From: an uncultured Verrucomicrobiae bacterium
Lineage (GTDB): Bacteria > Verrucomicrobiota > Verrucomicrobiia > Limisphaerales > Palsa-1400
Direction: 5' to 3'
NCBI GenBank assembly: GCA_963702845.1
Contig: OY969763.1
Coordinates: 5,728,001-5,792,000, forward strand
Length of the DNA stretch: 64,000 nucleotides
The notes under the pieces are model-generated. The model searched no databases and was not told where the DNA came from. It saw only the letters and a program-made list of their open reading frames with translations. A program made the position numbers and the translations under genes. Below, piece by piece: positions 1,348 through 51,484 of the stretch (its first letter is position 1; each line of letters opens with the position of its first letter).

Positions 1348-1424
1348 GGATGCGACATTAAAACTCCCGCGAAATGAATTCAAGCTCGCGCTGGTTTCGA
1401 GAGGCCAAACTTTCGATCTTTTCC

Positions 1425-1497
1425 GAAGGAGACGAGGTGACGATGCTCACTTCTGGAAATCCGAAAGAAGTCAGAGCCTCCTGACGTCGGCTGCTAC
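1425..1497. repeat. REP-like imperfect inverted repeat (GTAG-type arms)
   Basis: Arm 1425-1448 GAAGGAGACGAGGTGACGATGCTC versus reverse complement of 1474-1497 GTAGCAGCCGACGTCAGGAGGCTC (17/24). Inner ACTTCT/AGAAGT pair. Arm 1 matches 41231-41254 at 20/24. Confidence 0.7.
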
Positions 1498-1514
1498 AAT
1501 GGGCAGAAAAAAGT

Positions 1515-1705
1515 GGTAAAAAACTACTTTGACCTGGTTTGACTGGCCTTGACTAGGTTTGACAAATCCAGAACCAGTCAAACCCCGGTCACAGTAGCAG
1601 TCGCGGTGATTGGCAGTCGCAAAAAAGGGTAAAAAACTACTGCTAAATGGTGCTAAGTAGTGCGAAATGGTGCTAACTAGTGCTAAAAATCGGGAACTTT
1701 TAGCA
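1515..1705 (+). repeat. Two leader plus 10-bp-phased hexamer arrays
   Basis: GGTAAAAAACTAC at 1515 and 1628. The first is followed by (T/C)TTGAC at 1528/1538/1548/1558, the second by TGC(T/G)AA at 1641/1651/1661/1671/1681. Each array ends with one inverted copy after 13 bp. Confidence 0.85.
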
Positions 1706-1870
1706 CTCGTTTGGCAGTTACATTCGCAGTAGGCATTGCACTGTATTGAACTTCGGTCAGGCGGCAGGTTTAGTTTTCTAACGTTCTGGTGTTTAGTCAT
1801 ACACAAGAGGTTAATCTCTCGGTTGGTTGGAAGCTTCTTAGCAGTTCTGGTGTCCTAATAAGAATGAAAG

Positions 1871-2341
1871 ATGCGCGATAAAAATTTTATAGCCGAACAT
1901 CGCGGTGGGTTGCTGAAGATGCGTGATCACCGATTGCTCGCGAAGTGGGCCGCCGATTGTGCGGAGCATATCTTGAACGCGGTCTGGATGAATAAAGAAG
2001 ACCTGCGGCCATTCCGAGCGGTGGAGCAGGGGCGGGCGTGGTCGCGTGGTGAGAACAGAGTTGGTGATTGCCAAAAAGCTGCGGTTGCGGCCCATGCCGC
2101 CGCTCGGGCCTGCAAAGATCCGGCTGCGATTGCTGCGGCTCGTTGCGCGGGCCACGCCGTCGCGACGGCGCATATGGCGGATCATTGTTTTGGTGTTGGC
2201 TATGCTTTGAAAGCTGCAACGCTCGCTGGTCTCGATGTCGAACAGGAGCGGGCTTGGCAAAAAAGGCATCTGCCAAGACAAGTTCGTAAACTGGTTATCA
2301 CCGGACAAGCCCGCCGACGAGCATTGGGCAGGAGTATGTAG
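1871..2341 (+). CDS. Imm5-like putative immunity protein
   Basis: DHRLLAKWAADCAEHIL..RP..AVEQGRAWSRGE..AAVAAHAAAR..AARCAGHAVATAHMADH pattern recalled for the Imm-5-like family. Confidence 0.65.
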   Translation: MRDKNFIAEHRGGLLKMRDHRLLAKWAADCAEHILNAVWMNKEDLRPFRAVEQGRAWSRGENRVGDCQKAAVAAHAAARACKDPAAIAAARCAGHAVATAHMADHCFGVGYALKAATLAGLDVEQERAWQKRHLPRQVRKLVITGQARRRALGRSM

Positions 2342-2363
2342 GTGCGGTGAGTCGGTGAGTTGG

Positions 2364-2453
2364 TTCAATCGTCGCTACGCGACGAGTCGACGATCGACCG
2401 TTCTGATCCGTGGAATGAATTCCACGGCTACCTTCAAGAACCGCTACGCGGTT
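2364..2453. repeat. REP-like element with three hairpins
   Basis: CGTCGC-TAC-GCGACG (2370-2384), CCGTGGAA-TGAA-TTCCACGG followed by CTACC (2408-2432), AACCGC-TAC-GCGGTT (2439-2453). Confidence 0.7.
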
Positions 2454-2502
2454 CAACAATCATCCCGGCGGACGAAGAATTTGGTTTGAGCTCACAAAAA
2501 AG

Positions 2503-2541
2503 TTGACACGCCGTCCTAACTGTCATACTGTCCTATGACGG
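2503..2541 (+). promoter_or_regulatory. Sigma70-type promoter overlapped by a putative GntR/YtrA operator
   Basis: TTGACA 2503-2508, 17-bp spacer, TACTGT 2526-2531. Palindrome GTCATA-N6-TATGAC (2522-2539) directly upstream of the GntR ATG. Confidence 0.6.
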
Positions 2542-3841: not shown

Positions 3842-3842
3842 C

Positions 3843-19737: not shown

Positions 19738-20878
19738 TCACTTATCACTGACAAAGACCACGCTATCTCGCGCCCCCGCCGGAATATGCAAATTCACCCG
19801 CCGCGTATATTGCGGTAACAGACGCCCGCTCGCATCTTCGAATTCAACCTTCACCTCATGATCGCCAGGCGGAAGTTTGAACGACGTGAAACTCAAAAAC
19901 TGCGGCAGATTATCCCAACACCGCGTGTCGGCCTCCGGCGTTGTGAAAGCCGAAATTCCTTTGCTCAACGCCCCGGCCAACGCGAGTCCAATGCCGGCAT
20001 TGCGCGCATCCCCACTGCCTTCCGTGGCAAGGACGAGCCCACTAATGAGGCCGACATTCCCCGCAACATCCGTGCCCGTCTTGAACACAGCCTTGTTTGC
20101 CAAGACATGGTCCATCACCCGACCGCCACGCGTCCGCGCCTGGAAAGCCAAATCATCATAAGCCGGTGCTGGGAATTCATCGCGATCCACTTTCACCACC
20201 GCGCTGCGCACAACGGAATGTCCGTCGCGGAAGCGCAGCTCCTCCTGATATTCACCCGACGCATACTTCTCCGGTCCATTCCCAAACTCCACAAACACCA
20301 GCACATTCGCTTGCGCATCATAGGGCGGCAGCTTCAGCCCGCGTGCCAGGCCACACGCCCGCTTGTATGCATCGGCCCCATCCTGGTTCAATTTCACTGA
20401 GGCGAATCCATCGAGGTAATCCAGCAAAACATAATCGCTCGCAAACGTGTGCTCCTCCGCATCGCTGTCCTCCAGTTGCGCACTGCGGAAACACGCCCGC
20501 GCATTATCCGGTTCGCCATCCATCCAATAAAGAATGCCGCGATAGAAATACGCCATCACGCGTTCGTAGGGTTCGCCTAGAAAAGTTTTTTTCGATTCCC
20601 GGTGAAAATATCCGCGCGCCTGCTTTTGCGGTTTTATCATTCGCACGAATCCCGCTGATCGTCGTGATCGCCTCATCCAACAAATGCTTCGCCTCTGCAA
20701 ACTCGCCCTTCCTCAAATGCGTCACCCCATCCCGATACTCCCAAAGCACCAAATCTTTCGCCGGCACTGAAGTTGCGAACCCACCCGCCGTCGCATGCGG
20801 CGCCGTTGGCTCAGTCGTGGCGCAGCCCACGAGCAATGCGGAGGCGCAAACAACAACTGAGGAAAGGGGGAATCTCAT
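19738..20878 (-). CDS. Helical-repeat lipoprotein (COG3014-like), split by a 1-nt frameshift near 20625
   Basis: Lipobox LLVGC; ORF 20504..20878 continues into 19738..20700 (..ANDKTA/KQARGYF..FLGEPYERVMAYFYRG..ADTRCWDNLP) across a homopolymer run. Confidence 0.65.
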
Positions 20879-20933
20879 TGGCTCGAATTCGTTCTTTCAC
20901 GAATCCGTGTTTCGTTATCTGTGCCCAAAAAGA

Positions 20934-21566
20934 TCACCGATACGCCGCATCCGTCTGCCCCTGCTTCTTGATCCGATGCGAGCCATTCCAAATAACTTCA
21001 CTCGTATTCGGATCAATCAGCTCAAACGAATACAACACATAATCACTCGTGCCGGCGCTGGTTTTCGTCGTTTGTCCGACGAGCTTGCCCGTCAGCATAT
21101 AATCCGCGCCCTTGAACTGCTGAATATTCGGATCAGTCGCGCTCGTCACTTGACCGGTGCGTTTCAAATCACGTTCCTTTTCCAGTTCGCTAATGCGATC
21201 ACGCGCCAAAAACCGGACCTTACCCGACGCGCGTTCATTCAATAGCGCCATGATTTCATCCATGAAAATATCTTTGTTAAACGGAAACCGTGTATCGTTC
21301 TTGACTGGCAACAACACAATGCGCGGCGCCTTTTGCGCATTGGCAATCTCCGGCACACCCATGATCCCGTGCGCCATTTTTTCCGTGACGGCTATGATAT
21401 CCTGCGACTCAATCCCGGTCCCTACGACGAACCCTTTATCATCCGGTCGCATTTCGACCACGCCGACGCCACATGGTTTATCGATGCCGTTCGAGGCACA
21501 CCCAGCGATCACCGCCGCAGTCAAACCAATGGAAAGTGACGAAATAAATTTAGAACGGGCACACAT
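20934..21566 (-). CDS. LpoB/CsgG-like outer-membrane lipoprotein
   Basis: Lipobox IAGC; GTGIESQD..VKNDT..GADYMLTGKL..YVLYSFELIDPNTSEVIW..IKK. Confidence 0.75.
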   Translation of the reverse strand: MCARSKFISSLSIGLTAAVIAGCASNGIDKPCGVGVVEMRPDDKGFVVGTGIESQDIIAVTEKMAHGIMGVPEIANAQKAPRIVLLPVKNDTRFPFNKDIFMDEIMALLNERASGKVRFLARDRISELEKERDLKRTGQVTSATDPNIQQFKGADYMLTGKLVGQTTKTSAGTSDYVLYSFELIDPNTSEVIWNGSHRIKKQGQTDAAYR

Positions 21567-21745
21567 AATATGACTAGATAGACGGGACCTCGCCGCGCCT
21601 GTTCAAATTATTGCGACCACACCGGACCGAAGTCAATTTTACACCGAACCCCGTTGGCATGCGATCCGCGTAGCTGTTCCTGACCGTAGCCCGAAAACAG
21701 TTGGTGCAAAGAATTGAGCCCGTGGTAAAACCAATAACACACTTT

Positions 21746-23044
21746 ATGAGACACAGAATTCTATCTGCCTTGTTTGCTGTCGCATTTGTAGCGACCACCT
21801 TTGCGGCGACTGAAAATAAACCGGACGATCCATATTTTCAAAAGTTCAACCCAACCAAAGCGCCGAAGACGTCTCACTTGTTGCTCAAGCGCGACGATCG
21901 CCTCGCCATTTGCGGCGACTCCATCACCGAACAGAAAATGTATTCGCGTATCATGGAGACCTATCTCACCGTCGCGTTGCCGGAGCTAAACATCGCTACG
22001 CGCCAATACGGTTGGAGCGGCGAACAAGCCTCTGGATTTTTGAAGCGATTGACCAATGACGTGCTGCGCTTTCAGCCCAACGTCGTCACGACGTGCTACG
22101 GCATGAACGATCACCGCTATCAACCTTACAACGACGAAATCGGCGGCACCTACAAGACCAACCAGGAAGGCATTGTGCGCGGCAGCAAAGCGGCGCATGT
22201 GCGCACCATCATCGTCGGTTCATCCGGTTGCATGGGGCAAAAGACCCCATGGGGTTTCGTCAAAGGCAGCTCTGAAGAACGCAATCTGAGCCTGTGCACA
22301 TTGCGAAACATCGACGTCAACATCGCCAAAAGCGAACACGTTGGTTTCGCCGATGTCTTTTGGCCGATGTTCACCGGTGATTACTTCGCGCGCGAAAAGT
22401 TCGGTGAAACTTATGCCCTCGCCGGCGGTGATTCAGTCCATCCCGATTGGGCCGGCCACACCGTCATGGCCTATGCATTCCTGAAAGCCCTCGGCGTCCA
22501 AGGCGACATCGGCACCATCACCGTTGACCTCCGCAGTGGCAAAGCGAAGTCCACCCAAGGACATGAAGTTGTTTCGACCGGCGATGGCACAGTGACCATC
22601 AAGAGCTCGCGTTATCCCTTCTGCGCCGCTGGTGCGACAAACGTGCACACCACCATTCGCTCCGGTATGGTAATCGTGCCGTTCAATCAAGACCTGAACC
22701 GTTTCATTCTGATTGGTAAAAATGCGAAGGCACAAACATACAAAGTCACCTGGGGTGAAGAATCTAAAACCTACACCGCTGACCAATTGAAAAAAGGCGT
22801 GAACCTCGCCGACGACTTCCAGGTAAATCCCTTCTCTGCGCCATTCAAAGCGGTGGATGAAGCCGTCGCCAAAAAACAGAACTTCGAAACCAAACAAATC
22901 AAAGAACAATTCCACGGCGCCGCCGGCCAGAAGGACATCGAAGAAACCGTCGCCAAAACCGAAGCCGAACGCGCTCCGCTTGTGGCCGCCATCCACGCTG
23001 CCTTCAAGCCCGTGACCCACACGATCACGATCACTGCCGAGTAA
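21746..23044 (+). CDS. Secreted SGNH/GDSL hydrolase
   Basis: Signal peptide; CGDSIT, GWSG, YGMND, DSVHP..GH. Confidence 0.88.
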   Translation: MRHRILSALFAVAFVATTFAATENKPDDPYFQKFNPTKAPKTSHLLLKRDDRLAICGDSITEQKMYSRIMETYLTVALPELNIATRQYGWSGEQASGFLKRLTNDVLRFQPNVVTTCYGMNDHRYQPYNDEIGGTYKTNQEGIVRGSKAAHVRTIIVGSSGCMGQKTPWGFVKGSSEERNLSLCTLRNIDVNIAKSEHVGFADVFWPMFTGDYFAREKFGETYALAGGDSVHPDWAGHTVMAYAFLKALGVQGDIGTITVDLRSGKAKSTQGHEVVSTGDGTVTIKSSRYPFCAAGATNVHTTIRSGMVIVPFNQDLNRFILIGKNAKAQTYKVTWGEESKTYTADQLKKGVNLADDFQVNPFSAPFKAVDEAVAKKQNFETKQIKEQFHGAAGQKDIEETVAKTEAERAPLVAAIHAAFKPVTHTITITAE

Positions 23045-23216
23045 ATACTCCCAATGGCGCGGCGAGCCGAAAAACTCTCACTCAACCCTGAACGGGTTGA
23101 AGCGACCCGTATTGTTGCCGCCCTGACCGTGCGTTGACCTCGATTCGTGGCGACGTCGATCGATCGTCGACGCAGTTATCGATCGGTTCCACACGAGGAA
23201 CGGGAACCCCTCGGTC

Positions 23217-23603
23217 TTGTATTTGACTCGCAAGCCCATCTACGCAATAGTTGCCGTTGTCGGACTCGTTATGACTGCTATTGCCATTGTTACACTCTTA
23301 ACCGGCGTCCTGGTTTTCGTTCTCTGTTTACCATTGATCAGTCGCAAGATCCCTATGAACGGAGCCTACGGCATCCGTGTCCCTGCAGCCTTCGAATCAG
23401 AACAACGCTGGTATGACATTAACGCCTTCTGCGGCCGTCGCTTAGCTGCATGGTCCTTCCTCATCATGGCTACGGGAATAGCCGGCTTCTTCATTTCGCC
23501 AGAACATAAAGATAATTACCTTCTCGTGAGCGTCGCAGTAACCCTCATGGCCGTGGCAATCCCCGTCTTTCAGGTTCAAGCATGGAGTCGTAAAAAGGCG
23601 TAG
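23217..23603 (+). CDS. SdpI-family membrane (immunity-like) protein
   Basis: TM helices flanking KIPMNGAYGIRVPAAFESEQRWYDINAFCGR. Confidence 0.75.
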   Translation: MYLTRKPIYAIVAVVGLVMTAIAIVTLLTGVLVFVLCLPLISRKIPMNGAYGIRVPAAFESEQRWYDINAFCGRRLAAWSFLIMATGIAGFFISPEHKDNYLLVSVAVTLMAVAIPVFQVQAWSRKKA

Positions 23604-23671
23604 GCACCCTTCACCTCTTCACCAGCTTCGCCAACCTCGCCATTTCATTTACCCGCGCCCACTTCGCCTGC

Positions 23672-25438: not shown

Positions 25439-25582
25439 TTACTCCGAATCTAAAAGCGGGTGTTTCGAACTTGATTACGACGGAGGTTACTTCAAACTCA
25501 GGCAACTATTACTGCGGGGCAATCAAGCGACCAACAAGTTTCAGCCCGACATCTAATTTAGGGTGCCGAAGAGTAGTTCATA

Positions 25583-28046: not shown

Positions 28047-28113
28047 GGTCTATAACGCCCTTTGTGCCGCTGCTAAAACCGCAAAATCACCAAAGTTTAC
28101 AAGGGTTGTCACG
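28047..28113 (+). repeat. Degenerate copy of the TGTAACG cassette at 30594-30659
   Basis: GGTCTATAACGCCCTTTG..CGCAAAATCACCAAAGTTTACAAGGGTTGTCACG aligns by eye at roughly 80% with 30594-30659. Confidence 0.8.
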
Positions 28114-30559: not shown

Positions 30560-30575
30560 TCGGCCGGTTCGATTT

Positions 30576-30667
30576 TGTAACGCCTCCGCAGAGGGTCTGT
30601 AACGCCCTTTGTAACGGGTAAAAACGCAAAAATCACCAATGTTTACAAGGGTTGTAACGATGTAACG
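30576..30667 (+). repeat. Iteron-like cassette with five TGTAACG direct repeats
   Basis: TGTAACG at 30576, 30598, 30610, 30653 and 30661, with an A-rich spacer between copies 3 and 4. Confidence 0.85.
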
Positions 30668-30734
30668 GGTCAAACCCCCTGGAAGGGTGGGGGTAGGGTT
30701 GTTGGCCCGACGCCGTTCGCTTTCGTGTCGCATC

Positions 30735-30803
30735 TACAGCTATCCGCAGTTAACCGCAGTCGCAGTAGATATCACTAAATCGCACCAGATCGCAGTAGTT
30801 TTT
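30735..30803 (-). repeat. Leader plus decamer array (same family as 1628-1690), on the minus strand
   Basis: Minus strand reads AAAAACTAC TGCGATCTGG TGCGATTTAG TGATATCTAC TGCGAC, followed by further 10-bp-phased CTGCGG units. Confidence 0.75.
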
Positions 30804-30840
30804 GATCACTTCCATCTGCACCAAAATCCCCGCATATATT

Positions 30841-30940: not shown

Positions 30941-32669
30941 ATGAAAAAGAATCAGCCGAATAACCCCCGCAAATATTCCAGCCTCGTTCTCGACGGTCCT
31001 GAACGCGCACCCAGCCGCGCCATGCTTTATGCCGTCGGGTTCAAACAGGAAGATTTCAAGAAGCCGCTCATCGGCATCGCCTCGAGCTGGAGCATGGTCA
31101 CGCCGTGCAACGCGCATTTGGACAAGCTGGCCATCGAAGCTGAGCTCGGCGCAAACGCGGCCGGCGGCAAAGCGATCATCTTTAATACCATCACGGTTTC
31201 CGACGGTATTTCGATGGGCACCGAAGGAATGAAATATTCCCTCGTCTCGCGCGAAGTGATCGCCGATTCGATTGAGACGGTCGTCGGCAACGAAGGCATG
31301 GACGGTTATGTCGCCATCGGTGGATGTGACAAAAATATGCCCGGCGCGATGATGGCCATCGCCCGCATGAATCGTCCGGCCGTGTTCGTTTATGGCGGCA
31401 CCATTTTGCCCGGCTGCATCACTGGCGATCCGCGCAAGCTCGACATCGTTTCCGTTTTCGAAGCCGTCGGCGCGCATGCGAACAAAAAGATCGACGACGC
31501 GCAGCTTCAAAAAATCGAATCGTGCGCTATCCCCGGACCTGGTTCCTGCGGCGGCATGTACACCGCGAACACCATGGCCAGTGCGATCGAAGCGATGGGA
31601 ATGAGCCTGCCCAACAGCTCGGCGCAAAATGCGATTTCTAAAGCGAAGAAAGAAGACTGCCAGCGCGCGGGCGCCGCGGTCGTCGACTTACTCAAACGCA
31701 ATATCCGGCCTTTGGATATCATGACGCGTAAGGCTTTTGAAAACGCGATCACTGTCGTTATCGCTCTCGGTGGTTCCACCAACGCTGTGTTGCATCTGTT
31801 GGCCATTGCCAATGCTGCAGGCGTGAAGCTTTCTATCGACGATTTCACGAAGATCGGCAAGCACGTTCCAGTGCTCGCTGACTTGAAGCCAAGTGGTCGA
31901 TACCTCATGTCCGAGCTCGTCGCCATCGGCGGCATTCAGCCGTTGATGAAGACGTTGCTCGATGCTGGTTTGCTGCACGGCGATTGCATGACGGTCACTG
32001 GCAAAACGATGGCGCAGAATCTCGCCGGCGGTTCATCCATATCCCGCGGGTCAACAAATCATCCACCGCTCTTGATAATCCGATCAAAAAGGACAGCCAT
32101 CTCGTGATTCTTTACGGCAACCTCGCCCCCAAGGCGCCGTGGCGAAGATCACCGGCAAGGAAGGTCTGCGCTTCGAAGGCGCTGCGCGCGTGTTCAATTC
32201 TGAAGAACAAGCGATGGAAAAAATCATGGACGGCTCCATCAAGAAAGGTGACGTCGTGGTGATTCGTTTCGAGGGACCGAAAGGCGGTCCCGGCATGCGC
32301 GAAATGCTTTCGCCCACCAGCGCGATCATGGGCAAAGGTCTCGGCAAAGACGTCGCGCTCATTACCGACGGACGTTTCTCCGGCGGAACGCACGGTTTCG
32401 TTGTCGGCCACATTACGCCTGAAGCTTACGTCGGCGGCCCGCTCGCAATCGTGAAAAATGGCGACAAAATTGTCATCGACGCGGAAAAGCGCGAACTGAC
32501 CATGGGCGTTTCGGCGTCGGAAATGAAAGCCCGCAAGAAAGCGTGGAAACCGATGAAGCCACGTTATACCCGTGGCGTCTTGGCCAAATACGCGCATCTC
32601 GTGACTTCTGCGTCCCTGGGTGCGGTGACCGACCAGAATCTGAAGTTAGAAATTGTAAGCGAAATATAA
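30941..32669 (+). CDS. ilvD: Dihydroxy-acid dehydratase; frameshifts near 32030-32135 (probably sequence errors)
   Basis: [59 protein letters not shown], spread over three frames. Confidence 0.93.
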
Positions 32670-44039: not shown

Positions 44040-44791
44040 AAGCAGTCATTCTCGCCGCCGGCAAAGGCACGCGCATGGGCGGTCTCACTTCCGACTTGCC
44101 CAAGCCGATGCTTCGCGTGCACGGCAAACCGATTCTCGAACACATTATTACCGGCCTGCAAAGCGCGGGTATTCGTGAGTTCGTTATCGTGACCGGTTGG
44201 CATGCGGAGGTGATCGAGAGTTACTTCGGCGACGGATCGAAGTTCGGGATCAAAGTTCAGTATGGGCGACAAGTTGTTCAGGATGGGACGGGCAAAGCAC
44301 CGGAATTGGCGAAGGCATTTGTTGGTTCGGATGATTTTGTGCTGACCTACGGCGATATTCTTGTGCGACCGGAAACTTACAAACAGATGATCGCTCGTTA
44401 TGGCGAGAAACCGGTTTCTGGTTTGCTCACTTGCACAGGCAGTGAAGATGTGACCAAAGGCGGATTGTTGTTTTTCGATAAGATGTTTTGTCTTTGTAAG
44501 CTGGTGGAGAAACCAAGTGCGGCGGAAATTGATGCATTGCGAGCGGAGGGTTATCTAAAGTCTGGTGATACGGCTTGGTATAATGCGGGTGTTTACATTT
44601 TCAAACCGAGCATTTTTGAGTTCACGGCGAAGTTGCAGAAATCGCCACGAGGTGAGTATGAACTCACCGATGCGATTATTGCGATGCTCGTGGCTGGTCA
44701 TAAGTTTGCTGGGTTGGAGATTCAGGGGCGTTGGGTCGATGTCCGCGATCCGGAAGTTCTCGCCTCGTTGGAAAAAAGCCAACTCGACTAA
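44036..44791 (+). CDS. Sugar-phosphate nucleotidyltransferase
   Basis: AVILAAGKGTRM..PKPML, YGD, LVEKP, NAGVY, SPRGEYELTDAI. Confidence 0.9.
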   Translation: MKAVILAAGKGTRMGGLTSDLPKPMLRVHGKPILEHIITGLQSAGIREFVIVTGWHAEVIESYFGDGSKFGIKVQYGRQVVQDGTGKAPELAKAFVGSDDFVLTYGDILVRPETYKQMIARYGEKPVSGLLTCTGSEDVTKGGLLFFDKMFCLCKLVEKPSAAEIDALRAEGYLKSGDTAWYNAGVYIFKPSIFEFTAKLQKSPRGEYELTDAIIAMLVAGHKFAGLEIQGRWVDVRDPEVLASLEKSQLD

Positions 44792-45930
44792 CGTCGACTG
44801 CGATTCACGACTTTTTCTAAAATCGGAATTGTCTCGCGGACTTCGTCCTTCGTGGAATCGCGGCCTAGCGAAAAACGGACGAGAGAGTTGGCGGATTTTT
44901 TGTCCACGCCCAATGCGGTGATGACGTGTGAGGGTTCCAATGAACCGGCGGAACAGGCGGAACCGCTCGACGCGCAGACGCCTTCTATATCCAAGCCTGC
45001 AAGCAATGTGATGCTGTCAGCGCCGTCGACGGTGAATGCAATGGTGTTGCTGAGGCGTTTTGTTTGAGAGCCGCGGAGATGGACGCCGGGAATTTTCGAA
45101 ACTGAACTCGCGAGTTCATTTGTGAGGTTAAACAAGTTTTCGCGCGGGAAGACCGGAGATTTGACGAAACGTTCCATCGCTTCAGCTAATCCAATCACGG
45201 CGGCTAAATTTTCTGTGCCGGCGCGGCGCTCGTTTTCGTGGCCGCCGCCGAAGATGATTGGGTCGGGATGTAACGGCGATTTGATGTAGAGCGCGCCGAT
45301 GCCTTTTGGCCCATGTAGTTTGTGCGCGCAGAAGGAGACCAGGTCGGCATTGAATTGGTCGATGTTTTCGAACGGTTCTTTGCCGAACCATTGGACGGCG
45401 TCGGTGTGGAAGATGACGCCGCGCTCGCGACAGATCGCGCCGATTTCGGCGACGGGTTGGATCGTGCCGATTTCGTTGTTGGCGGCCATGATCGAGACAA
45501 GGGTGGTGTCGGCGCGGATGGCGTTCTTCACGTCTTCAGGATTGATGAAACCTTCTTTGTTCACCGGGATGTAGGTAACGGTGAAGCCTTCGCGTTTTTC
45601 CAAGTATTGAAAGCAATGCAGGACGGCGTGGTGTTCAATGGTCGATGTGATGATGTGCCGGCCTTTGTCGGACAGCGCGCGTGCGGTGCCGAAGATGGCG
45701 AGGTTATTACTCTCCGTGCCGCCGCTGGTGAAAATGACTTCGCTCGGTTTGCAGTGCCAGACTTTCGCAACGCGGTCGCGGGCGTCATCGAGAATGGAGC
45801 GAGCGCCTTGGCCGATGTGATGGACGGACGACGGGTTGCCCCACACTTCACCAAAATACGGCATCATCGCCTCGCGGACTTGTGGGTCCAGAGGCGTTGT
45901 CGCGTTATAGTCGAAGTAAATAGTTTTCAT
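44788..45930 (-). CDS. iscS: Cysteine desulfurase (IscS/NifS type)
   Basis: IYFDYNATTP, GNPSS, FTSGGTESNN, ANNEIG, HTDAVQ, AHKLHGPKG, RAGTEN, SSGSACSAG. Confidence 0.92.
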   Translation of the reverse strand: MKTIYFDYNATTPLDPQVREAMMPYFGEVWGNPSSVHHIGQGARSILDDARDRVAKVWHCKPSEVIFTSGGTESNNLAIFGTARALSDKGRHIITSTIEHHAVLHCFQYLEKREGFTVTYIPVNKEGFINPEDVKNAIRADTTLVSIMAANNEIGTIQPVAEIGAICRERGVIFHTDAVQWFGKEPFENIDQFNADLVSFCAHKLHGPKGIGALYIKSPLHPDPIIFGGGHENERRAGTENLAAVIGLAEAMERFVKSPVFPRENLFNLTNELASSVSKIPGVHLRGSQTKRLSNTIAFTVDGADSITLLAGLDIEGVCASSGSACSAGSLEPSHVITALGVDKKSANSLVRFSLGRDSTKDEVRETIPILEKVVNRSRR

Positions 45931-46006
45931 GTTTTACAGATCAATCCACGAAATGCGTACGGCTTTCGCATCCCCTTTGAGCACTCGTTTCTTTGTCATG
46001 TCGATC

Positions 46007-48626
46007 TCAACGAAATCCTGATCTCGATTTCACTATAATCCCTCGGTCGCCGAACTGAAGCTGAGAGACATGACTGAGAGCAACGTATTTTAAGCTGTTG
46101 TTTCGATCAGCCCGCACTACGCAGAGCATGCCTTTCATTGAGAAAAACAGATGATCTGCGGACAACGTCCGATCGCTGCGTTGTTGTGGGTCAGCGGCTA
46201 AGACGTAATCGCGATCGCCTGAAATGAGTTCGACGTACAGGCCAACGTCAGCACCAGTTGTCGCGTTGGTAACGCTATGCAACAAAAGGCGAGTGATTCG
46301 CTTGATGGTTGACGTCTTTTCGAACGGTTCAAGCACGCTGACAAAGGTTGAACTCAAAGGTGCGGCACCAGTTTTACGCGTAATCAGACATGGGATCCAA
46401 GCTTCGCCTAAATTGTCGGCGAGGTGGACGGGTGGGGCGATCCAGGCTTCGGCGGTGATGGCGTCGACGCCGGTCGAGAGATCGGTGTAGCGCATTTTTA
46501 GGTTCGTGTTTTTCGGGAGTTGGTGGAAGCGATCTTCGATGTTCCAGTCCAGGCTCCAGCCATTTGGCGGATTAGTCGCGAGGGCGAAGTTGCGGAGTTG
46601 GCCACCGGTGATGAGGTCGGTTTTTGAAGGGGTGAAATGTAGGTTGCTCGTGGTGAGGGTCGAGATGGGGCCGTAGACGAATTTGTAGTGGCCGCTGCCG
46701 GCGATGGTGCGGAAGATGTCGAGGACGTAGAAATTTTTGTCGTCGATGTCGATGAGCGCGGCGGTGCGTTCGTATTGTTTGCCGCCGACCACTGCTGGAG
46801 CATCGGCGCGGATGGCGTGGAACATTTCGCCGTCGGCCCACATGGTTGCTTTGCCGGTGGCAGGACGTTGGGGTTGATCAACAAGCACGGTGTTGTGAGC
46901 GCCGGTTGTTTTGTACCATTCGGCGCGCGGAGTGGTACCAGCCGCCGAATTGGACAGGTGGATAGCCGAAGTCAGGCAAAAGGTCCATGCCGTGGGCGAA
47001 GAGACCTATGGTCATGCCATCGAGATGGCTGTGGTTGCCATAGGAATCGTAATCAAGCCAGAGGGCTCGAGCGTTTTTGCCTTTGCCGCTGCGGAGGATG
47101 GCGATGTGCCAGTCTTCTTTGTTGATGCTGCCGAGTTTTAGGTCTTCGCCGTTCTTTGCGATGACTTGCTTCGTCGATTTTTGGAACCGCGATGGATTAT
47201 CGGCGAACAAATCGTGCGGAAGGTTTTTGACTGAGTGGTTGTTTTCTCGATGGAGAATTTGGATATAAGCCGGGTCGTGCGTTGCTTCGTATAAGCGCCA
47301 GAAGAAGGAATACATCGAGGGGGCAAGAGGATCGGACTGAGTTTTGTCAAAACTAGCGCCGACGTAATGGGGCGTGGGTTGACCGAAAGCGCTGCAGTCA
47401 CCAGAGCGCGGGTAGTATTGGTCCAAACAATATGTGTCGATATGGAAGCGCCAGGTGTTGGTGAGTGACGGATTACGTTGGATCAGGGCGGGCAGAAAGG
47501 TGGCGTCGGCGCGGCTGTATTCTTCGAGAAAACTGGCCAGGCTGGCGATGGTGTAGGAGGTGTAGCCGCTCAGGCCTTTTTCACCAGTGACGCCGTCGAC
47601 CGCGGTGGCGGGTTTTACGAAATGATCGATCATCGCTTCGACCGCTTTGCGGTTTTCGGGCCAGCCGAGGACGGTGGTTAAAACCGTGAGACAGATTTCG
47701 TCGCGTGGAAAATTGCTGTGGACGCGTTCGCGGTGGATGAGCGGGTGGCGCAAGAGGCCGGTTTCAATATTTTGACGCTTTGCGTCGTCGCGGAAGCCTT
47801 CGAAGATTTGATCGTAGGCCAACGCGAGTTCGCGCGTTTCTTCACACGCGTCGTGCCAGACGGAGATGTAGCCGTTATTCCCGCCGGTTTCGTAGGTCAA
47901 GCCTTGGCTGGCGTAGTCAAAGCTGGGATAGAAATCGGCAAGGCGATCGAGGAGGACGCCGCATTGGTTGGCGTAGGTTTCGTCGCCGGTCAGGACGTAG
48001 GCGCGGGCGAGAGCTTTTGCGCCGTTGAGGATTACTTGTTTGAATTGGCCGTAGATTTCGTACGCGCCGATGAATCGCCAGCGATGGCCGTCGTCGACGT
48101 AGCCTTCGCCGTCGTCGACGCCAAACATGTGGAGTGGGTCTGCTGCGTCGGGATGGTCGGTGTTAAAAAGCAGGGCGCGGTTGGCGTGTTTTTGGTTGAA
48201 CCAGCCTTTTTCATCGAGGCCGCTCTTGTAATAGGCGTAGAAATCATTTTTTGGGAAGACTTCGTTGCAGTTGGGGCAGGAGAGTTTCCATGGTTTTTTT
48301 TGAGCGTCGATTTTCCAGTCGTACATGCGGACTGGTTTTTTGCAGGTGGGGCAATAGCCATCGGACCAAACCATCCAGGAACGAGTGGTGCCGGGGCTGA
48401 AGACGAGGTCGCGGAGTTGTTCGTCGGAATTGGTGTGCCACCAGGTGGCGTTGGTGATGACGGTGGTTAGGAAATTTTTGCCGTTGGGGTCGTGTTTTAG
48501 GTTGGTGCGGATTTTTTGAAGGACGTCCTGGGGATAGAAGGCGCTGTGTTGTTTGTTGGTTTCGGTGGCGGAAAGGGAAAGGGAGAGTGAGAGTGAAAGT
48601 GCAAAAATGGCTTTGTACAGGCGCAT
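46007..48626 (-). CDS. Heparinase II/III-family polysaccharide lyase, frameshifted near 46915
   Basis: Signal peptide; helical N-terminal region; ILRSG..NHSHLDGMTIGLFAHGMDLLPDFGYP..HNTVLVD joining ORFs 46878..48689 and 46007..46888. Confidence 0.75.
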
Positions 48627-48666
48627 GGTTTTACCAGAAGCGTGAACGACTGGATGGCGCATGATT

Positions 48667-49118
48667 GGGTTGTTTAGGTTGTTTGTCACAACGATTTTTT
48701 ATTAGGTGCGAATAACCGCGAATAACCGCGAATCGGATAAGGTTGGAATTTTTTTTAATTTGGTTTGAATTGCTTTGAAAAGGCGCCTGAGGAATGGGAC
48801 CTCTCGGAAGAATGGGAGCTATGTGTCGGCGCAGTGGCAGTGGCGGAATTCTTCATGACTGATCTTTCCATGTTTCCGAAGAGCGTTATTGCTCGGCGGG
48901 CACACGTTGTGCGTGCAGGGGGATTGTGCAAGAAGTGGCTACTCTGTCAAAAAATGTAGGAAAAGGAGGGAAGCCAGGGAAAGGAGGGAAAAGAAGTGCA
49001 GTTTTTTGTGATGAAATTGTGCGTTTTTATGGGGTTGGCATGGTTTTTGAGAGGGGGCTTCACCACAGAGGCACAGAGAGGAAGGCGAACGTTCAACTCC
49101 CAACATCCAACGTCGAAC
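48667..49118 (+). repeat. Cluster of short-period repeats
   Basis: GCGAATAACC x2.6 (48708-48733); 9-bp-period GGGAAAGGA-like run (48958-48995); CACCACAGAGGCACAGAGAG (49061-49080); heptamers GAACGTT CAACTCC CAACATC CAACGTC GAAC (49087-49118). Confidence 0.75.
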
Positions 49119-49166
49119 GATATGCGGACTTGATCATCCGTGCTCAACGCGCCTGCGTGATGCGCG

Positions 49167-50258
49167 CTATCTGACCGCTTCTTCGATGGCGCTTACGATG
49201 AGGTCTTGGTCCTTCTCGCTCAAGAATGGGTGCATTGGCAAACTCAGGACTTCGTTGGCGGCTTTTTCGGAGACGGGGAATTGGCCGGGTTTGTAGCCGT
49301 ACGGGGCGAAGACGGGTTGTTCGTGGATGGACTTTGGGTAGTAGACGGCGGTTGGGATGCCTTTGGCTTTTAGCTTTGTTGCCACTTCGTCGCGGTTGGG
49401 GACGCGGATGGTGTATTGAGCGTAGACGTGGGTGTTGCCTGTTTCGATCTTTGGGACGATGCAGCAGTTTTTTAGTTTTTCGGAATATCTCGCGCCGATA
49501 GCGATGCGGGCTTCGACTTCTTTTTCGAAATGGGGCCATTTGGCCATAAGCACTGCGGCCTGGATGGTATCGAAACGGCCGTTCATGCCGACGAGCGGGT
49601 GGTGGTGGCGTTTGATGCCGCCATGGGTGCGGATGGCGCGCATTTTATCGGCGAGTTCGTCGTCGCTGGTGAACAACGCGCCGCCTTCGCCGTAGCAACC
49701 CAAGGGTTTCGCGGGGAAGAAGCTGGTGCTGGAAATCTTGGTGACGCCGCAGCTGCGCTTGCCGTTTTGGGTCGCGCCGAAGCTTTGGGCGGCGTCTTCG
49801 ATGACGGTGATGTTGTGTTTTGCGGCGATTTTGTTGATTGCGTCGCAGCCGGGCATTTGGCCGAACAAGCTGACTGGGATGATGGCTTTGGTGCGAGGGG
49901 TTATGGCGGGTTCGATTTGGCTGATGTCGATGTTGTAGGTGTCGGGTTCGATGTCGATGAAGACGGGTTTTGCGCCAACTAACAGAATGACTTCAGCGGT
50001 GCTGATCCAGGTGAAAGGGACGGTGATGACTTCGTCGCCGGGGCCGATGTCGAGGGCGCGCAAGGCGATTTCGAGGCTGTCGGTGCCGCTGGCGACGGTG
50101 AGGCAATGGCGGGTGTTGGTGTAAGTCGCGAGGGTTTGTTCGAGTTCGGTGTTTTCGGGGCCGAGAATGTATTGGCCGTGTTCGAGAACTTTTTTGATGC
50201 GAGCGTCGATCTCCGCCTGGTAGAGGCGGTATTGGGTCTTCAGGTCTATGAAATCCAT
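49167..50258 (-). CDS. DegT/DnrJ/EryC1/StrS aminotransferase (WbpE-like nucleotide-sugar aminotransferase)
   Basis: MDFIDLKTQY, SGTDSL, IEDAAQSFGA, TSFFPAKPLGCYGEGGA, GMNGRFDTIQAA, LSLPMHP. Confidence 0.93.
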   Translation of the reverse strand: MDFIDLKTQYRLYQAEIDARIKKVLEHGQYILGPENTELEQTLATYTNTRHCLTVASGTDSLEIALRALDIGPGDEVITVPFTWISTAEVILLVGAKPVFIDIEPDTYNIDISQIEPAITPRTKAIIPVSLFGQMPGCDAINKIAAKHNITVIEDAAQSFGATQNGKRSCGVTKISSTSFFPAKPLGCYGEGGALFTSDDELADKMRAIRTHGGIKRHHHPLVGMNGRFDTIQAAVLMAKWPHFEKEVEARIAIGARYSEKLKNCCIVPKIETGNTHVYAQYTIRVPNRDEVATKLKAKGIPTAVYYPKSIHEQPVFAPYGYKPGQFPVSEKAANEVLSLPMHPFLSEKDQDLIVSAIEEAVR

Positions 50259-50267
50259 GCGAAGAGA

Positions 50268-50422
50268 AGGATGAGGGATGGGAAGAGAATTTCAAATTTC
50301 AAATTTCAGATTTCAAAGGAAGAAAAAAGAAATTTCAAATTCGCATTTCAAATTTTCGGTGGGTCGGTGGGTGGGAAAAAGCGGTCCCGACGGGTCGAGA
50401 CCGCAGTTCAAGACGCGTCGCG
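50268..50422 (+). repeat. Heptamer repeats plus REP-like hairpin
   Basis: ATTTCA(A/G) x4 (50289-50316) with further copies at 50331-50356; hairpin GCGGTC(C)CGAC-GG-GTCG(A)GACCGC followed by AGTTCAAGACGCG (50378-50422). Confidence 0.75.
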
Positions 50423-50498
50423 TTGTACTACGCATTTGGTCAGTTGTAATAACGATTGGGCTTTGTCGGGTGGAATGAGTTGTGTTACATCAAAGGCG

Positions 50499-51263
50499 AT
50501 GCCAGATCGTTTGCCGACTTGTTTCGATAGTGTAGGACCGTTTAAGGAGTTTTTTCAGACGGGGACGCCGGTTTTGATGTACCACAAAATCGGGAAAAGA
50601 CCACGAGGGGTTCGACTCAAGGGGCTTTATGTCAACCCGGAGCAGTTCGAGCGGCATGTGCAGGAGTTGAAGGATAACGGTTTTGCCAGCGCGACTCTCT
50701 CGGAGTTGGCGACGATGACCGCCTCTGCGCCTTTATCGAACAAGGTCGTGTTTACGTTCGATGATGGCTTTCGCAATGTTTTGGAGAATGCGGTGGCGCC
50801 ATTGGGCAAGGCTGGGTTTAAGGCGATTCAGTTTTTAGTGCCGAATTATTTGGGCAAGGTCAATGAATGGGATTTGCGCGACGGTGAAGTGCCGGAAACG
50901 TTGATGGATAAAATTCAGGTGCAGGATTGGCTGGCCGCCGGGCACGAAATCGGGTCGCACTCGATGACGCATGCCAGCTTGACGCGGCTTTCGGTGCGGG
51001 ATGCGCGCGAGGAAATTATCAGCAGCAAGAAGAAGCTGGAGGATATGTTCGCTTGTCCGATCGTTCATTTTTGTTATCCGTATGGAAACTGGAATGATGC
51101 AATTCGCGATGTGGTGATTGAAGCTGGCTACCAGACGGCATGCACGACGAAGTTCGGCGTGAACACGCCTGAGACGGCCAAGCATGCCATGAATCGCATT
51201 ACGGCCCGGCATCCGACGCGCAGTTTGAAGGCGCTGAAGGAACGGTTGTTTAAAAGTTCGTAG
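50499..51263 (+). CDS. Polysaccharide deacetylase (CE4/NodB)
   Basis: PVLMYHKI, FTFDDG, HEIGSHSMTH, FCYPYG. Confidence 0.9.
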   Translation: MPDRLPTCFDSVGPFKEFFQTGTPVLMYHKIGKRPRGVRLKGLYVNPEQFERHVQELKDNGFASATLSELATMTASAPLSNKVVFTFDDGFRNVLENAVAPLGKAGFKAIQFLVPNYLGKVNEWDLRDGEVPETLMDKIQVQDWLAAGHEIGSHSMTHASLTRLSVRDAREEIISSKKKLEDMFACPIVHFCYPYGNWNDAIRDVVIEAGYQTACTTKFGVNTPETAKHAMNRITARHPTRSLKALKERLFKSS

Positions 51264-51484
51264 GTGCAACATTCTGGCGGGAACCCAAGGGGCAACTTAC
51301 CGATCGTTCTCGCAAATCGGGGCATTCAGGGATTTTCCTTATGCAGCAACCATGCGTTTCCTTACACGCGAATACTTGATTTTCTTTGGCCGCAAGCGGA
51401 CGTTAAACCTTAGGCAAAAACTTTGGCTGATTGAGCTCTGCTGGGTTAAAGTAAGAGCCTTTAAACAAAGTGTTTGCGCAAGAT

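What the first reader, a model, noticed from the sequence alone, without database searches (positions are those of the whole stretch)
1400..51300. Mini-repeat clusters sit inside local strand-skew domains and share a polarity: candidate undescribed directional DNA-remodelling system
Seen: base skew is strong and independent of gene direction. The + strand is C/A-rich over about 19.7-25.2 and 28-31.6 kb, and G/T-rich over about 1.8-2.7 and 44-54 kb. Hand counts on chosen 60-nt lines (not an unbiased sample): 24421-24480 C29/G8 (minus gene); 22981-23040 C25/G13 (plus gene); 49861-49920 G25/C9 (minus gene); 44701-44760 G23/C10 (plus gene). The skew looks strongest around the repeat clusters. Motifs shared between clusters always lie on the locally G/T-rich strand: AAAAACTAC-decamer arrays (+ at 1.5 kb, - at 30.8 kb), ATTTCAA heptamers (+ at 50.3 kb, - at 25.3 kb), ACCACAGAG..CAC.GAGAG (+ at 49.06 kb, - at 24.75 kb), and REP arms ending CTAC (+ at 1497 and 2431, - at 24610). 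Inference: these loci may be hotspots of a polar process (local strand-displacement replication, HUH-nuclease nicking with repair synthesis, or templated conversion) that both deposits mini-elements and biases mutation on one strand. No responsible enzyme is evident here apart from the DUF3631-like gene.
Basis: partly seen in the sequence, partly recalled or inferred. Interest (0 to 1): 0.85.

Follow-up and report, generated by a model that had tools for sequence, protein, structure and literature searches.

The report
Genome-wide local G/C strand-skew domains

Summary
The skew is real. All four hand counts are exact, and two of the four tracts (19.7-25.2 kb, 44-54 kb) rank in the top 0.3-0.4% of same-size windows in this genome. 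The other two tracts are ordinary.

It is not special to this window or to its repeat clusters. The 6.03-Mb Verrucomicrobiota chromosome holds 137 segments with |GC skew| >= 0.1. They cover 25% of the bases and have a median length of 8.75 kb. At fourfold-degenerate sites the skew reaches +/-0.8, has the same sign for genes on either strand, and involves G and C only.

Sharp C-rich-to-G-rich switches outnumber the reverse 73 to 26, and each fades over about 5-10 kb. The amplitude is graded within the genus (G000 > G002 > G001) and low in samples from two other genera.

Short tandem arrays are about 2.4-fold denser inside skewed domains, so they are a correlate, not a cause.

Best reading (inferred, about 0.3): a polar DNA transaction that starts at discrete sites, with a context-free fixation bias for G on the outward-running strand. 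Similar sawtooth patterns were noted earlier in this scan in other soil bacteria.

The parts
19751..25250 (.). C-rich (+ strand) skew domain. It strengthens rightwards and ends abruptly at about 25.2 kb.
   Evidence: segments: 19751-23500 at -0.16 and 23501-25250 at -0.365. GC skew -0.228, top 0.3% of same-size windows; orthologous blocks in G002 (-0.16 to -0.36) and G001 (-0.09 to -0.44) share it.
25150..25450 (.). Sharp C-rich-to-G-rich switch, one of 73 in the genome. It lies at the 5' end of the DUF3631 gene, beside a heptamer run (25302-25322) and a 25-nt hairpin repeat (25352-25376).
   Evidence: jump at genome 5753200 (window about 25200), left -0.26, right +0.01, d=0.27. Sequence. Hairpin family.
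44251..60000 (.). G-rich (+ strand) skew domain across about 13 genes of both orientations, peaking at 48-50 kb.
   Evidence: +0.186 over 15.75 kb; per-gene fourfold skew on the + strand runs from +0.12 to +0.80 for genes on either strand; the same amplitude in G002 orthologs (0.26-0.29), but about 0 in G001, G004 and G005.
23672..25330 (-). DUF3631 P-loop protein gene. The start is probably the ATG near 25330 rather than the GTG at 25438.
   Evidence: PF12307, E=7.9e-30; invariant C112-G113-K114-T115-T116 and D153-E154-D156; some relatives are named 'putative DNA primase/helicase' by a source; model pLDDT 61.6; best fold hits are ClpX AAA+ modules at E about 0.12, which is inconclusive; only 2 loci in the genome.
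1508..1711 (+). Two modules, each a 21-nt box (AAAAAGKGGTAAAAAACTACT) followed by a 10-bp-phased array (TTGACnnGnn x3-4; TGCTAAnTnG x4-5).
   Evidence: The local skew here is ordinary.
30575..30815 (.). Conserved repeat of about 115-120 nt (30575-30693, five TGTAACG units plus a G/C hairpin), followed by a locus-specific array (30730-30815).
   Evidence: 6 further copies of 116-128 nt elsewhere in G000 (84-96% identity); copies at 89-96% identity in G001 and G002; alignment; no Rfam family.
48708..50317 (+). Short tandem arrays inside the skew peak: GCGAATAACC x2.6 (48708-48733), AGGGAAAGG x3.8 (48958-48991), AATTTCA x4.3 (50288-50317).
   Evidence: the AGGGAAAGGAGGGA 14-mer lies on the G-rich strand in 26 of 29 occurrences. 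These counts are not independent, because tandem copies are counted.

Best explanation
What it is (shown). The window's two strong tracts are ordinary members of a genome-wide mosaic of local G-versus-C strand-skew domains in a Verrucomicrobiota chromosome.
- The skew sits at neutral (fourfold) sites.
- It has the same sign for genes on either strand.
- It leaves A/T skew untouched.
- It multiplies the G:C odds by about 2.9 in every sequence context.
- It does not raise divergence.
- It typically begins with a sharp C-rich-to-G-rich switch, so the G-rich strands run 5'->3' away from the switch on both sides, and it fades over about 5-10 kb.
- It evolved in place in vertically inherited genes and differs in strength between congeneric genomes.

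How it most likely works (inferred, about 0.3). DNA ends or nicks arise repeatedly at discrete sites. The 3' single-strand tails pair with a homologous partner. Heteroduplex correction then acts asymmetrically. By recall, MutS-type repair sees G-containing mismatches such as G.G well and C.C hardly at all, and it excises the strand that carries the end. Over time this fixes G on the strand running away from the site and C on its complement, a strand-asymmetric form of biased gene conversion.

The mini-repeat clusters are bystanders. They are enriched in the same domains but do not drive them.
For: Genome-wide extent and orientation independence:
- 1-kb skew SD is 0.102 and 5-kb SD is 0.084.
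- For 4330 of 4660 called genes, the fourfold + strand residual has SD 0.28 against a sampling SD of 0.107.
- Neighbour correlation is 0.54 overall, and 0.44 for 1516 oppositely oriented neighbour pairs.
- In |s| >= 0.15 domains, fourfold skew is +0.39/+0.43 and -0.49/-0.44 for + and - strand genes.

G and C only:
- In the most skewed genes the favoured base is 0.57-0.59 and its partner 0.15. A and T both fall, and GC4 rises from 0.65 to 0.72-0.74.
- Across switches, GC skew jumps by about 0.54 while AT skew stays flat.

Context-free:
- The log-odds shift is 0.82-1.29 in all 14 neighbour contexts with data.

No hypermutation:
- C/G differences between G000 and G002 are 0.142 of fourfold sites in strong regions and 0.143 in neutral regions.
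- My hand arithmetic: tilting G by e^B and C by e^-B, with B about 0.5-0.65, reproduces G 0.55, C 0.15 and GC4 0.71.
- A pure C->G rate change instead predicts an A>T by-product of 0.12-0.16, which is not seen.

Polarity:
- Distinct jumps >= 0.2 are 73 up against 26 down (p=2.5e-6), and up >= down in all ten 600-kb chunks.
- The orientation-corrected fourfold series gives 60 against 24 and 46 against 13.
- The aggregate profile is N-shaped.

Evolved in place and lineage-specific:
-.

Sign (inference from geometry plus recalled MutS preferences):
- The end-plus-heteroduplex model predicts G-rich strands diverging from the site, as observed.
Against: - No recombination, DNA-end or polymorphism data were available, so the mechanism is inference only.
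- No sequence motif marks the switches. The best 8-mer has p=1e-5 before correction for about 32,000 words.
- The model, using recalled A.A > T.T repair, predicts a small purine (A>T) skew that is not seen.
- Intergenic DNA shows under half the fourfold amplitude (+/-0.12 to 0.21 against +/-0.27 to 0.45). A pure composition tilt does not predict this, unless intergenic sites are constrained or my 'intergenic' class hides missed genes.
- Some switches are simply island boundaries, for example 4,490,900, which borders a low-GC tract.
- The jump asymmetry appears only for large jumps: >= 0.1 gives 288 up against 314 down.
- Parsimony counts are small and the sites are near saturation.
Confidence: 0.33

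Rival explanations
1. Local origin-like or strand-displacement DNA synthesis. Synthesis repeatedly starts at the switch points and runs outward. One template strand is left exposed, as at a replication origin, and the exposed strand becomes G-rich.
For: - The sign and shape are those of an origin: sharp up-jumps with G-rich strands diverging, then gradual decline.
- The G-rich strand equals the skew-inferred leading strand in 95 of 137 domains and 79% of their bases.
- The cumulative-skew minimum (4.755 Mb) is itself one of the switches.
- The arm co-oriented with that direction is longer in both halves of the chromosome.
Against: - There is no A/T skew and no rise in T, unlike deamination of exposed DNA.
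- The local amplitude (fourfold skew up to 0.8) is far above the chromosome-scale skew of about 0.02-0.03.
- There is no AT-rich dip at the switches and no cluster of E. coli-type DnaA boxes (0.12 against 0.15 per kb; the consensus was recalled).
- There is no excess divergence.
- The 'leading strand' assignment is partly circular, because it is derived from the skew itself. The gene-orientation curve that agrees with it has a range no larger than a random walk would give (my estimate).
Confidence: 0.17
2. A strand-specific mutational bias from error-prone gap-filling or translesion synthesis next to recurrent DNA ends. One strand would be preferentially resynthesised by a polymerase that over-inserts one nucleotide.
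For: - The net change from G001 to G000 on the G-rich strand is 'anything to G': G-for-C 353 against 104, G/A 207 against 136, G/T 112 against 72.
- Tandem arrays, which are slippage products, are 2.3-2.6-fold denser in domains.
Against: - Divergence is not raised in domains.
- The composition fits a symmetric tilt better than one raised rate (and hand arithmetic).
- Y-family polymerase, UDG and RNase HI gene content is not distinctive against relatives.
Confidence: 0.15
3. Transcription-associated asymmetry. The non-template strand of dominant transcription becomes G-rich, giving a sawtooth anchored at promoters.
For: - Switches lie near gene boundaries: 53% are within 100 bp of intergenic DNA, against 29% of random points.
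- Any junction type would give an up-jump if transcription units ran from G-rich at the 5' end to C-rich at the 3' end.
Against: - Domains span many units of both orientations with a single + strand sign.
- Genes do not point away from switches: 49% on the left and 39% on the right.
- The within-gene gradient is tiny (-0.029 to -0.063), and first/middle/last genes of 506 same-strand runs are alike (-0.046/-0.066/-0.063).
- The 50.2-kb divergent junction in the window shows no switch.
Confidence: 0.08
4. A mosaic of horizontally acquired or inverted segments that carry the skew of another replicon or of a former orientation.
For: - Some domains are mobile DNA. Terminase/portal tracts at 2.30 and 2.76 Mb are strongly skewed.
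- The top switch borders a low-GC island.
Against: - Inversions and insertions predict equal numbers of up-jumps and down-jumps, but 73 against 26 is seen.
- Genes at 44-60 kb are as similar to G001 and G002 as the genome average (73-87% against 77-78.5%). Yet G001, G004 and G005 orthologs have about 0 skew.
- Domain GC content is ordinary.
- The strongest domains hold ordinary genes, for example ribosomal S6/L25, prs and ssb.
Confidence: 0.05
5. Direct selection for G/C skew as a polar signal, for example to orient a DNA translocase or to limit R-loops.
For: A context-free tilt, strongest where sites are free to vary, without extra divergence, is what weak selection on composition would give.
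Against: - No known system reads bulk skew over about 10-kb bipolar tracts (recalled).
- The congener G001 and two other genera lack it at the same genes.
- No motif was found.
Confidence: 0.07

Closest known systems
Replication-associated strand compositional asymmetry of bacteria (Lobry-type GC skew, leading against lagging strand)
   Same: G exceeds C on one strand at neutral sites regardless of gene direction. The G-rich strand tends to match the skew-inferred leading strand (79% of domain bases).
   Different: There are about 137 local domains and 73 sharp switches instead of one ori and one ter switch. Local fourfold skew reaches 0.8, against a chromosome-scale 0.02-0.03. There is no accompanying T>A skew.
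Skew 'N-domains' of mammalian genomes (sharp upward skew jumps at replication origins with gradual decline; recalled from Touchon, Huvet, Arneodo and co-workers; no paper read here)
   Same: A sawtooth shape with sharp up-jumps outnumbering down-jumps and gradual decay.
   Different: The scale is about 10 kb rather than about 1 Mb, and the organism is a bacterium. Only the G/C skew contributes. Nothing here shows replication initiation.
GC-biased gene conversion (for example PMC3649680; seen in a search listing and abstract only)
   Same: It behaves like a fixation bias: composition is tilted without raised divergence, and GC at neutral sites is modestly raised.
   Different: The bias is between G and C on one strand, not between GC and AT. 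It is polar around a site. No recombination data exist for this genome.
Irregular GC skew of polyploid cyanobacteria with DnaA-independent, multi-site replication (PMC7198777; search listing and abstract only)
   Same: A weak or irregular chromosome-scale skew in a free-living bacterium.
   Different: There the point is the lack of a clear profile. Here there are strong, discrete, conserved local domains, and dnaA is present.
   Same: Y1_Tnp genes exist in the genome (7 matches). Hairpin repeats exist.
   Different: No repeat is abundant; the top 14-mers have 30 copies or fewer. No Y1_Tnp gene lies in the window.

Membership tests
Replication-associated skew (single ori/ter) | One sign switch at the origin and one at the terminus, with a uniform sign within each half | tested here: not met
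   336 segments, of which 137 have |s| >= 0.1 and carry both signs in both halves. There are 73 up-jumps and 26 down-jumps >= 0.2.
Replication-associated skew (single ori/ter) | Asymmetry at neutral sites independent of gene orientation | tested here: met
Replication-associated skew (single ori/ter) | G and T rise together on the same strand (keto skew from cytosine deamination; recalled) | tested here: not met
   AT skew is flat across switches and in domains, and T falls in skewed genes.
Transcription-associated strand asymmetry | The sign follows the coding (non-template) strand of each gene or operon | tested here: not met
   The + strand sign is the same for both gene orientations. There is no operon gradient. 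Genes do not diverge from switches. A separate coding-strand effect, C-ending codons in ribosomal genes, does exist.
REP/RAYT system | A RAYT (Y1_Tnp) gene is present | tested here: met
   7 matches over the cut-off in the genome, none in the window.
REP/RAYT system | Hundreds of REP palindromes, typically in oriented pairs | tested here: not met
   The most frequent 14-mers have 30 copies or fewer. The hairpin family has 22 copies.
   24 of 47, 753 of 1570 and 25 of 44 on the G-rich strand.
Skew N-domains (origin-anchored sawtooth) | Sharp upward jumps with gradual decline | tested here: met
Skew N-domains (origin-anchored sawtooth) | Jumps coincide with mapped replication origins | not testable with these tools
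   No replication-timing or marker-frequency data. No useful sequencing runs were found. There is no DnaA-box enrichment.
Biased gene conversion | Composition shifts without a raised substitution rate | tested here: met
   C/G differences are 0.142 in strong regions and 0.143 in neutral regions. This is rough, because the sites are partly saturated.
Biased gene conversion | Coincidence with recombination hotspots, and derived favoured alleles at high frequency | not testable with these tools
   No population data.
Genomic island / horizontally acquired DNA | Atypical GC, mobility genes, absence or discordant similarity in relatives | tested here: not met
   For 44-60 kb, GC is 0.51-0.56, the genes are ordinary and orthologs are syntenic at average identity. 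It is met for a minority of domains.

The most novel reading that the evidence does not exclude
This bacterium, and other soil PVC-type bacteria noted elsewhere in the scan, carries on the order of a hundred fixed chromosomal sites where a bidirectional DNA transaction starts. That transaction writes its polarity into neutral sites. Two readings fit. One is recombination hotspots with a strand-asymmetric, mismatch-repair-driven gene-conversion drive (G.G corrected, C.C ignored), which has not been described. The other is eukaryote-like dispersed initiation of DNA synthesis. Under either reading, the skew map would be a sequence-only map of those sites.
Probability: 0.25. Interest if true: 0.9.

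Novelty: new variant of a known kind. Interest (0 to 1): 0.72.

Why it matters
Strand skew in bacteria is normally read as a two-armed record of replication and is used to find origins and to check assemblies. This genome is different. Its skew is strong, local, limited to G and C, and polar around many sites, and it switches on and off between congeneric species.

If the cause is a repair or conversion bias, it would be a new evolutionary force on codon usage. Some genes here use G- or C-ending codons 9:1 purely because of where they sit. It would also offer a way to locate recombination or DNA-end hotspots from sequence alone. If the cause is local DNA synthesis, it would challenge the single-origin view for this clade.

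There are also practical consequences. Skew-based origin finders and codon-adaptation indices will mislead on such genomes.

Tried and rejected
- Keto-skew or deamination reading: rejected.
- Transcription-unit gradient: rejected.
- Divergent-promoter origin of up-jumps: rejected. Down-jumps, by contrast, do sit at divergent genes (about 70% point away).
- Head-on gene enrichment in domains: not significant, 175 against 142, p=0.07.
- Motif at switches: none significant; no AT-rich dip.
- DnaA-box clusters (recalled E. coli consensus): none at switches, at dnaA (3.404 Mb) or at 4.755 Mb.
- Distinctive repair gene content: none. RNase HI is found in 5 of 21 genomes including G000 and G001. UDG is in 21 of 21. 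Y-family polymerase is in 18 of 21. G001 and G002 are only 73% and 67% complete.
- Toy model of GC content: a pure C->G asymmetry does not explain why intergenic skew is weaker (0.33 against 0.38 predicted).
- Parsimony polarisation on two genes: small counts at near-saturated sites, used only as a hint.
- Rfam on the window: 0 families. tRNA scan: 0.
- Sequencing runs: no RNA holder listed, and only two soil runs holding 0.05 of the words.
- DUF3631 protein: no PHROGs or NCBIfam family. PDB sequence hits were chance-level only (E=0.28). Fold search was inconclusive.
- Literature: four searches listed no paper describing local bipolar G/C-only skew domains in bacteria. I read passages of PMC3269016 only. 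It names coding bias, inversions and horizontal transfer as sources of local skew.

Full report
**1. Setting**

The window is G000:C1:5,728,001-5,792,000 of a single-contig 6,027,559-bp genome with 54% GC. Pfam content and the titles of the closest related loci place it in the Verrucomicrobiota.

I made my own gene calls with a codon log-odds model: 4660 genes covering 84% of the bases. These calls miss or mis-strand a few strongly skewed genes. Two examples in the window are 50106-51263 (+) and 1871-2341 (+), so the window's key genes were checked by Pfam.

Yes, in part.
- The four 60-nt hand counts are exact.
- 1-kb GC skew reaches -0.360 at 24-25 kb and +0.339 at 48-49 kb.
- A change-point segmentation calls 19751-23500 (-0.16), 23501-25250 (-0.365) and 44251-60000 (+0.186). 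Everything else in the window is about 0.
- Against all same-size windows of this genome, 19.7-25.2 kb and 44-54 kb lie in the top 0.3% and 0.4%.

Independence from gene direction holds for Pfam-verified genes.
- On the minus strand, 44788-45930 (Aminotran_5), 49167-50258 (DegT), 52698-53327 (response regulator) and 54651-55574 (YdjM) have third-position coding skews of -0.36 to about -0.5.
- On the plus strand, 51470-52660 (histidine kinase), 53702-54706 (GGDEF) and 55515-56366 (cNMP-binding) have +0.18 to +0.30.
- The + strand is therefore G-rich throughout.
- On the + strand, the fourfold skew of the DegT gene is +0.80.

**3. It is a property of the whole genome, not of this window**

- The SD of GC skew is 0.102 in 1-kb windows and still 0.084 in 5-kb windows.
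- For 4330 genes with enough sites, the + strand fourfold skew, corrected for the small coding-strand baseline, has SD 0.28 against a sampling SD of 0.107.
- It correlates between neighbouring genes at 0.54, and at 0.44 for 1516 oppositely oriented pairs. The correlation falls to 0.08 at lag 10.
- 137 of 336 segments have |skew| >= 0.1. They cover 25.5% of the bases and have a median length of 8.75 kb.
- In the 65 segments with |skew| >= 0.15, the fourfold skew on the + strand is +0.39 (plus genes) and +0.43 (minus genes), or -0.49 and -0.44. Codon positions 1 and 2 shift by about 0.06, and 'intergenic' DNA by about 0.19-0.21.
- The ten strongest domains that I annotated (87 proteins) hold ordinary genes of both orientations, including ribosomal S6/L25, prs, ssb, metabolic enzymes and two-component systems. 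Two of the ten hold terminase or portal genes.

**4. What kind of bias is it?**

- It is not keto skew. In the most skewed genes one of G or C rises to 0.57-0.59 and the other falls to 0.15. A and T both fall, GC4 rises from 0.65 to 0.72-0.74, and AT skew hardly moves.
- Across the sharp switches, fourfold GC skew jumps by about 0.54 for genes of either orientation. AT skew stays at -0.15/-0.08, +0.13/+0.15, and 0.01/0.00 in intergenic DNA.
- The G:C log-odds shift in strong domains is 0.82-1.29 in every one of the 14 neighbour contexts with data, on coding and template strands alike. This argues against context-specific mutators.
- Divergence is not raised. C/G differences between G000 and G002 are 0.142 of fourfold sites in strong regions and 0.143 in neutral regions.
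- A toy model shows that raising only the C->G rate would create an A>T by-product of 0.12-0.16, which is not observed.
- By my own hand arithmetic, an 'exponential tilt' (G times e^B, C times e^-B, A and T untouched, B about 0.5-0.65) reproduces the observed G 0.55, C 0.15 and GC4 0.71, and the near-unchanged C/G exchange. The signature therefore looks like a fixation-type bias, or a balanced two-way rate change. It does not look like one lesion class.
- A separate, orientation-dependent effect also exists. The ribosomal-protein cluster (1.401-1.415 Mb, all on the minus strand) prefers C-ending codons, with coding fourfold skew of mostly -0.25 to -0.65.

**5. Polarity**

- Comparing 3 kb to the left and right of every position, distinct upward jumps (C-rich to G-rich on the + strand) outnumber downward ones. 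The counts are 73 against 26 at >= 0.2 (p=2.5e-6), 23 against 6 at >= 0.25, and 159 against 114 at >= 0.15.
- There is no asymmetry at >= 0.1 (288 against 314). Up >= down holds in all ten 600-kb chunks at the 0.2 threshold.
- This statistic is unchanged by reverse-complementing, so it is a real polarity.
- It persists in the orientation-corrected fourfold series: 60 against 24 with three genes a side, and 46 against 13 with four.
- The aggregate profile is N-shaped, -0.12 then +0.13 over all sites. It decays over about 4-6 kb, with tails to about 12 kb.
- Up-jumps are not at divergent genes: 49% of left-side and 39% of right-side coding points away. The 26 down-jumps are at divergent genes (about 70%), as expected from C-ending codon bias.
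- 53% of refined up-jumps lie within 100 bp of intergenic DNA, against 29% of random points.
- There is no AT-rich dip and no significant 8-mer. There is no enrichment of DnaA-box-like words.
- The window contains one such switch, at about 25.2 kb.

**6. Relatives**

- Two fragmentary same-genus genomes align to G000 at about 78.5% (G002) and 77% (G001) nucleotide identity.
- The 2-kb skew SD is 0.095 in G002 (48 windows) and 0.064 in G001 (39 windows), against 0.094 in G000.
- In 600-kb samples of two other genera, the 5-kb SD is 0.041 (G016) and 0.030 (G012), against 0.075-0.087 in every 600-kb chunk of G000. Jumps >= 0.2 number 2 up and 2 down, and 0 and 0.
- The 44-60 kb domain has the same amplitude in G002 orthologs (0.26-0.29 against 0.27). 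It is about 0 in G001 (-0.06 to 0.05) and in G004 and G005 DegT orthologs (-0.05, 0.03).
- Of 24 homologs of the 603-aa gene that I examined, out of 62 loci returned, only one had the extreme third-position skew (-0.66). The rest ranged from -0.21 to +0.10. That one locus is not independent of the G002 rows.
- The 19.7-25.2 kb domain is shared by all three genomes.
- Over all G000-strong regions, the G-rich-strand composition is G 0.58/C 0.17 in G000, 0.52/0.23 in G002 and 0.44/0.30 in G001. This is a graded trait. Note that the regions were chosen on G000, which inflates its value.
- Block skews correlate at r=0.57 with G002 (25 blocks) and r=0.30 with G001 (19 blocks).
- Transitions at fourfold sites are saturated between these genomes. 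Shared skew therefore reflects a process that persists at the same places, not merely shared ancestry of sites.

**7. The repeats**

- No repeat family is abundant; the top 14-mers have 30 copies or fewer.
- Two other families do follow the G-rich strand. The hairpin CACTTGGACAAAGGCTGTCCAAGTG does so in 20 of 22 copies. The window copy is one of the two exceptions.
- The purine array word AGGGAAAGGAGGGA does so in 26 of 29 occurrences, but tandem copies make these counts non-independent.
- Short intergenic tandem arrays are 2.3-2.6-fold denser per intergenic base in strong domains (56 arrays in 63 kb against 182 in 498 kb). Their own G/C excess matches the flanks in 81 of 107 cases where |flank| > 0.1.
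- I read the arrays as correlates shaped by, or arising in, the same regions.

**8. Candidate enzymes**

- DUF3631 occurs at two loci only.
- Both lie within about 5 kb of a top-ranked switch, but one of those switches is simply the edge of a low-GC island.
- The protein has invariant Walker-A-like and DEAD-like motifs. Some relatives are named 'putative DNA primase/helicase' by a source.
- The model is mediocre (pLDDT 61.6). The best fold hits are AAA+ modules at E about 0.12.
- Seven Y1_Tnp matches exist, none in the window, and two are within 1.5 kb of switches.
- None of this can account for 137 domains.

**9. Mechanism**

*Shown.* The bias is a site-anchored, bidirectional, orientation-independent, context-free tilt between G and C. 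It does not raise divergence, it persists in place, and it is lineage-specific.

*Inferred (about 0.3).* Recurrent DNA ends form at the switch points. Their 3' tails form heteroduplex with a homologous partner, and correction is asymmetric.
- To the right of an end, the surviving tail is the minus strand.
- If mismatch repair recognises G.G but not C.C, and removes the ended strand, then alleles with G on the + strand spread on the right and alleles with C spread on the left. (These MutS-type preferences are recalled from E. coli and pneumococcal work and were not tested here.)
- That is the observed sign.
- The recalled hierarchy also favours G over A and T, and disfavours C against A and T, which matches the tilt.
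- It wrongly predicts a small A>T skew.

Earlier notes of this scan report solitary terminase pairs and multiplied integron-type sites in this same genome. Enzymes that make DNA ends are therefore plentiful, but I have no link between them and the switches.

The rivals are origin-like synthesis, error-prone resynthesis, transcription, mosaicism and direct selection. They are weighed in their own sections.

**10. Earlier scan notes**

A planctomycete (e1-7031515) and a Gemmatimonadota genome (e1-7749228) were noted with similar sawtooth skew, the latter read as transcription. An array-linked case (e1-7342235) was also noted. These are unchecked AI notes on other DNA. They suggest that the pattern recurs in soil bacteria.

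**11. Verdict**

The phenomenon is a new variant of strand compositional asymmetry. Four literature searches listed no description of it. Its mechanism remains open.

Noticed in passing
window 30575-30693 (with a partial copy at 28047-28113): A repeat of about 115-120 nt with five TGTAACG units and a terminal G/C hairpin. G000 has 6 further copies of 116-128 nt, and G001 and G002 carry copies at 89-96% identity although those genomes are only about 78% identical overall. Each copy is followed by a different locus-specific array of about 10 nt. On the minus strand the window's array could encode a short Cys-containing peptide, by my reading of the sequence, which I did not test. There is no Rfam match.
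   Followed up: partly
window 25352-25376, and 21 other genome sites: A 25-nt perfect hairpin, CACTTGGACAAAGGCTGTCCAAGTG, sits about 20-30 nt upstream of the start codon of the gene reading away from it. Those genes include the DUF3631 gene and genes next to solitary terminase genes. It is probably the shared 'control sequence' of the terminase pairs noted earlier in this scan.
   Followed up: partly
window 1508-1711: Two tandem modules, each a 21-nt A-rich box followed by a 10-bp-phased direct-repeat array (TTGAC-type, then TGCTAA-type). They lie between a LysM gene and an Imm5-like immunity gene and look like arrays of protein-binding sites.
   Followed up: no
window 25583-27968: Two adjacent genes encode GloVer tandem-repeat proteins (TIGR03803, 7 repeats each, E=9e-123 and 1e-106).
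   Followed up: no
genome 1,401,113-1,414,740; dnaA at 3,403,852: The main ribosomal-protein cluster lies on the minus strand, which would be head-on to the replication direction inferred from cumulative skew (minimum 4.755 Mb, maximum 2.22 Mb). dnaA lies 1.35 Mb from that minimum. The true origin is therefore uncertain.
   Followed up: partly
window 30941-32669: The dihydroxy-acid dehydratase gene appears as a 388-aa ORF that carries only the N-terminal domain, followed by a separate 176-aa ORF (32139-32669) that I did not scan. It may be a split or frameshifted ilvD.
   Followed up: no
genome 4,491,000-4,496,000 (L254 2001-7000): A low-GC tract (0.47-0.49) with a DUF3631 fragment abuts the strongest skew switch of the genome. 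It is probably an inserted island.
   Followed up: partly
relatives: RNase HI (PF00075) was found in only 5 of 21 genomes searched (G000, G001, G003, G023, G025), and in 1 of the 15 that are at least 90% complete.
   Followed up: no
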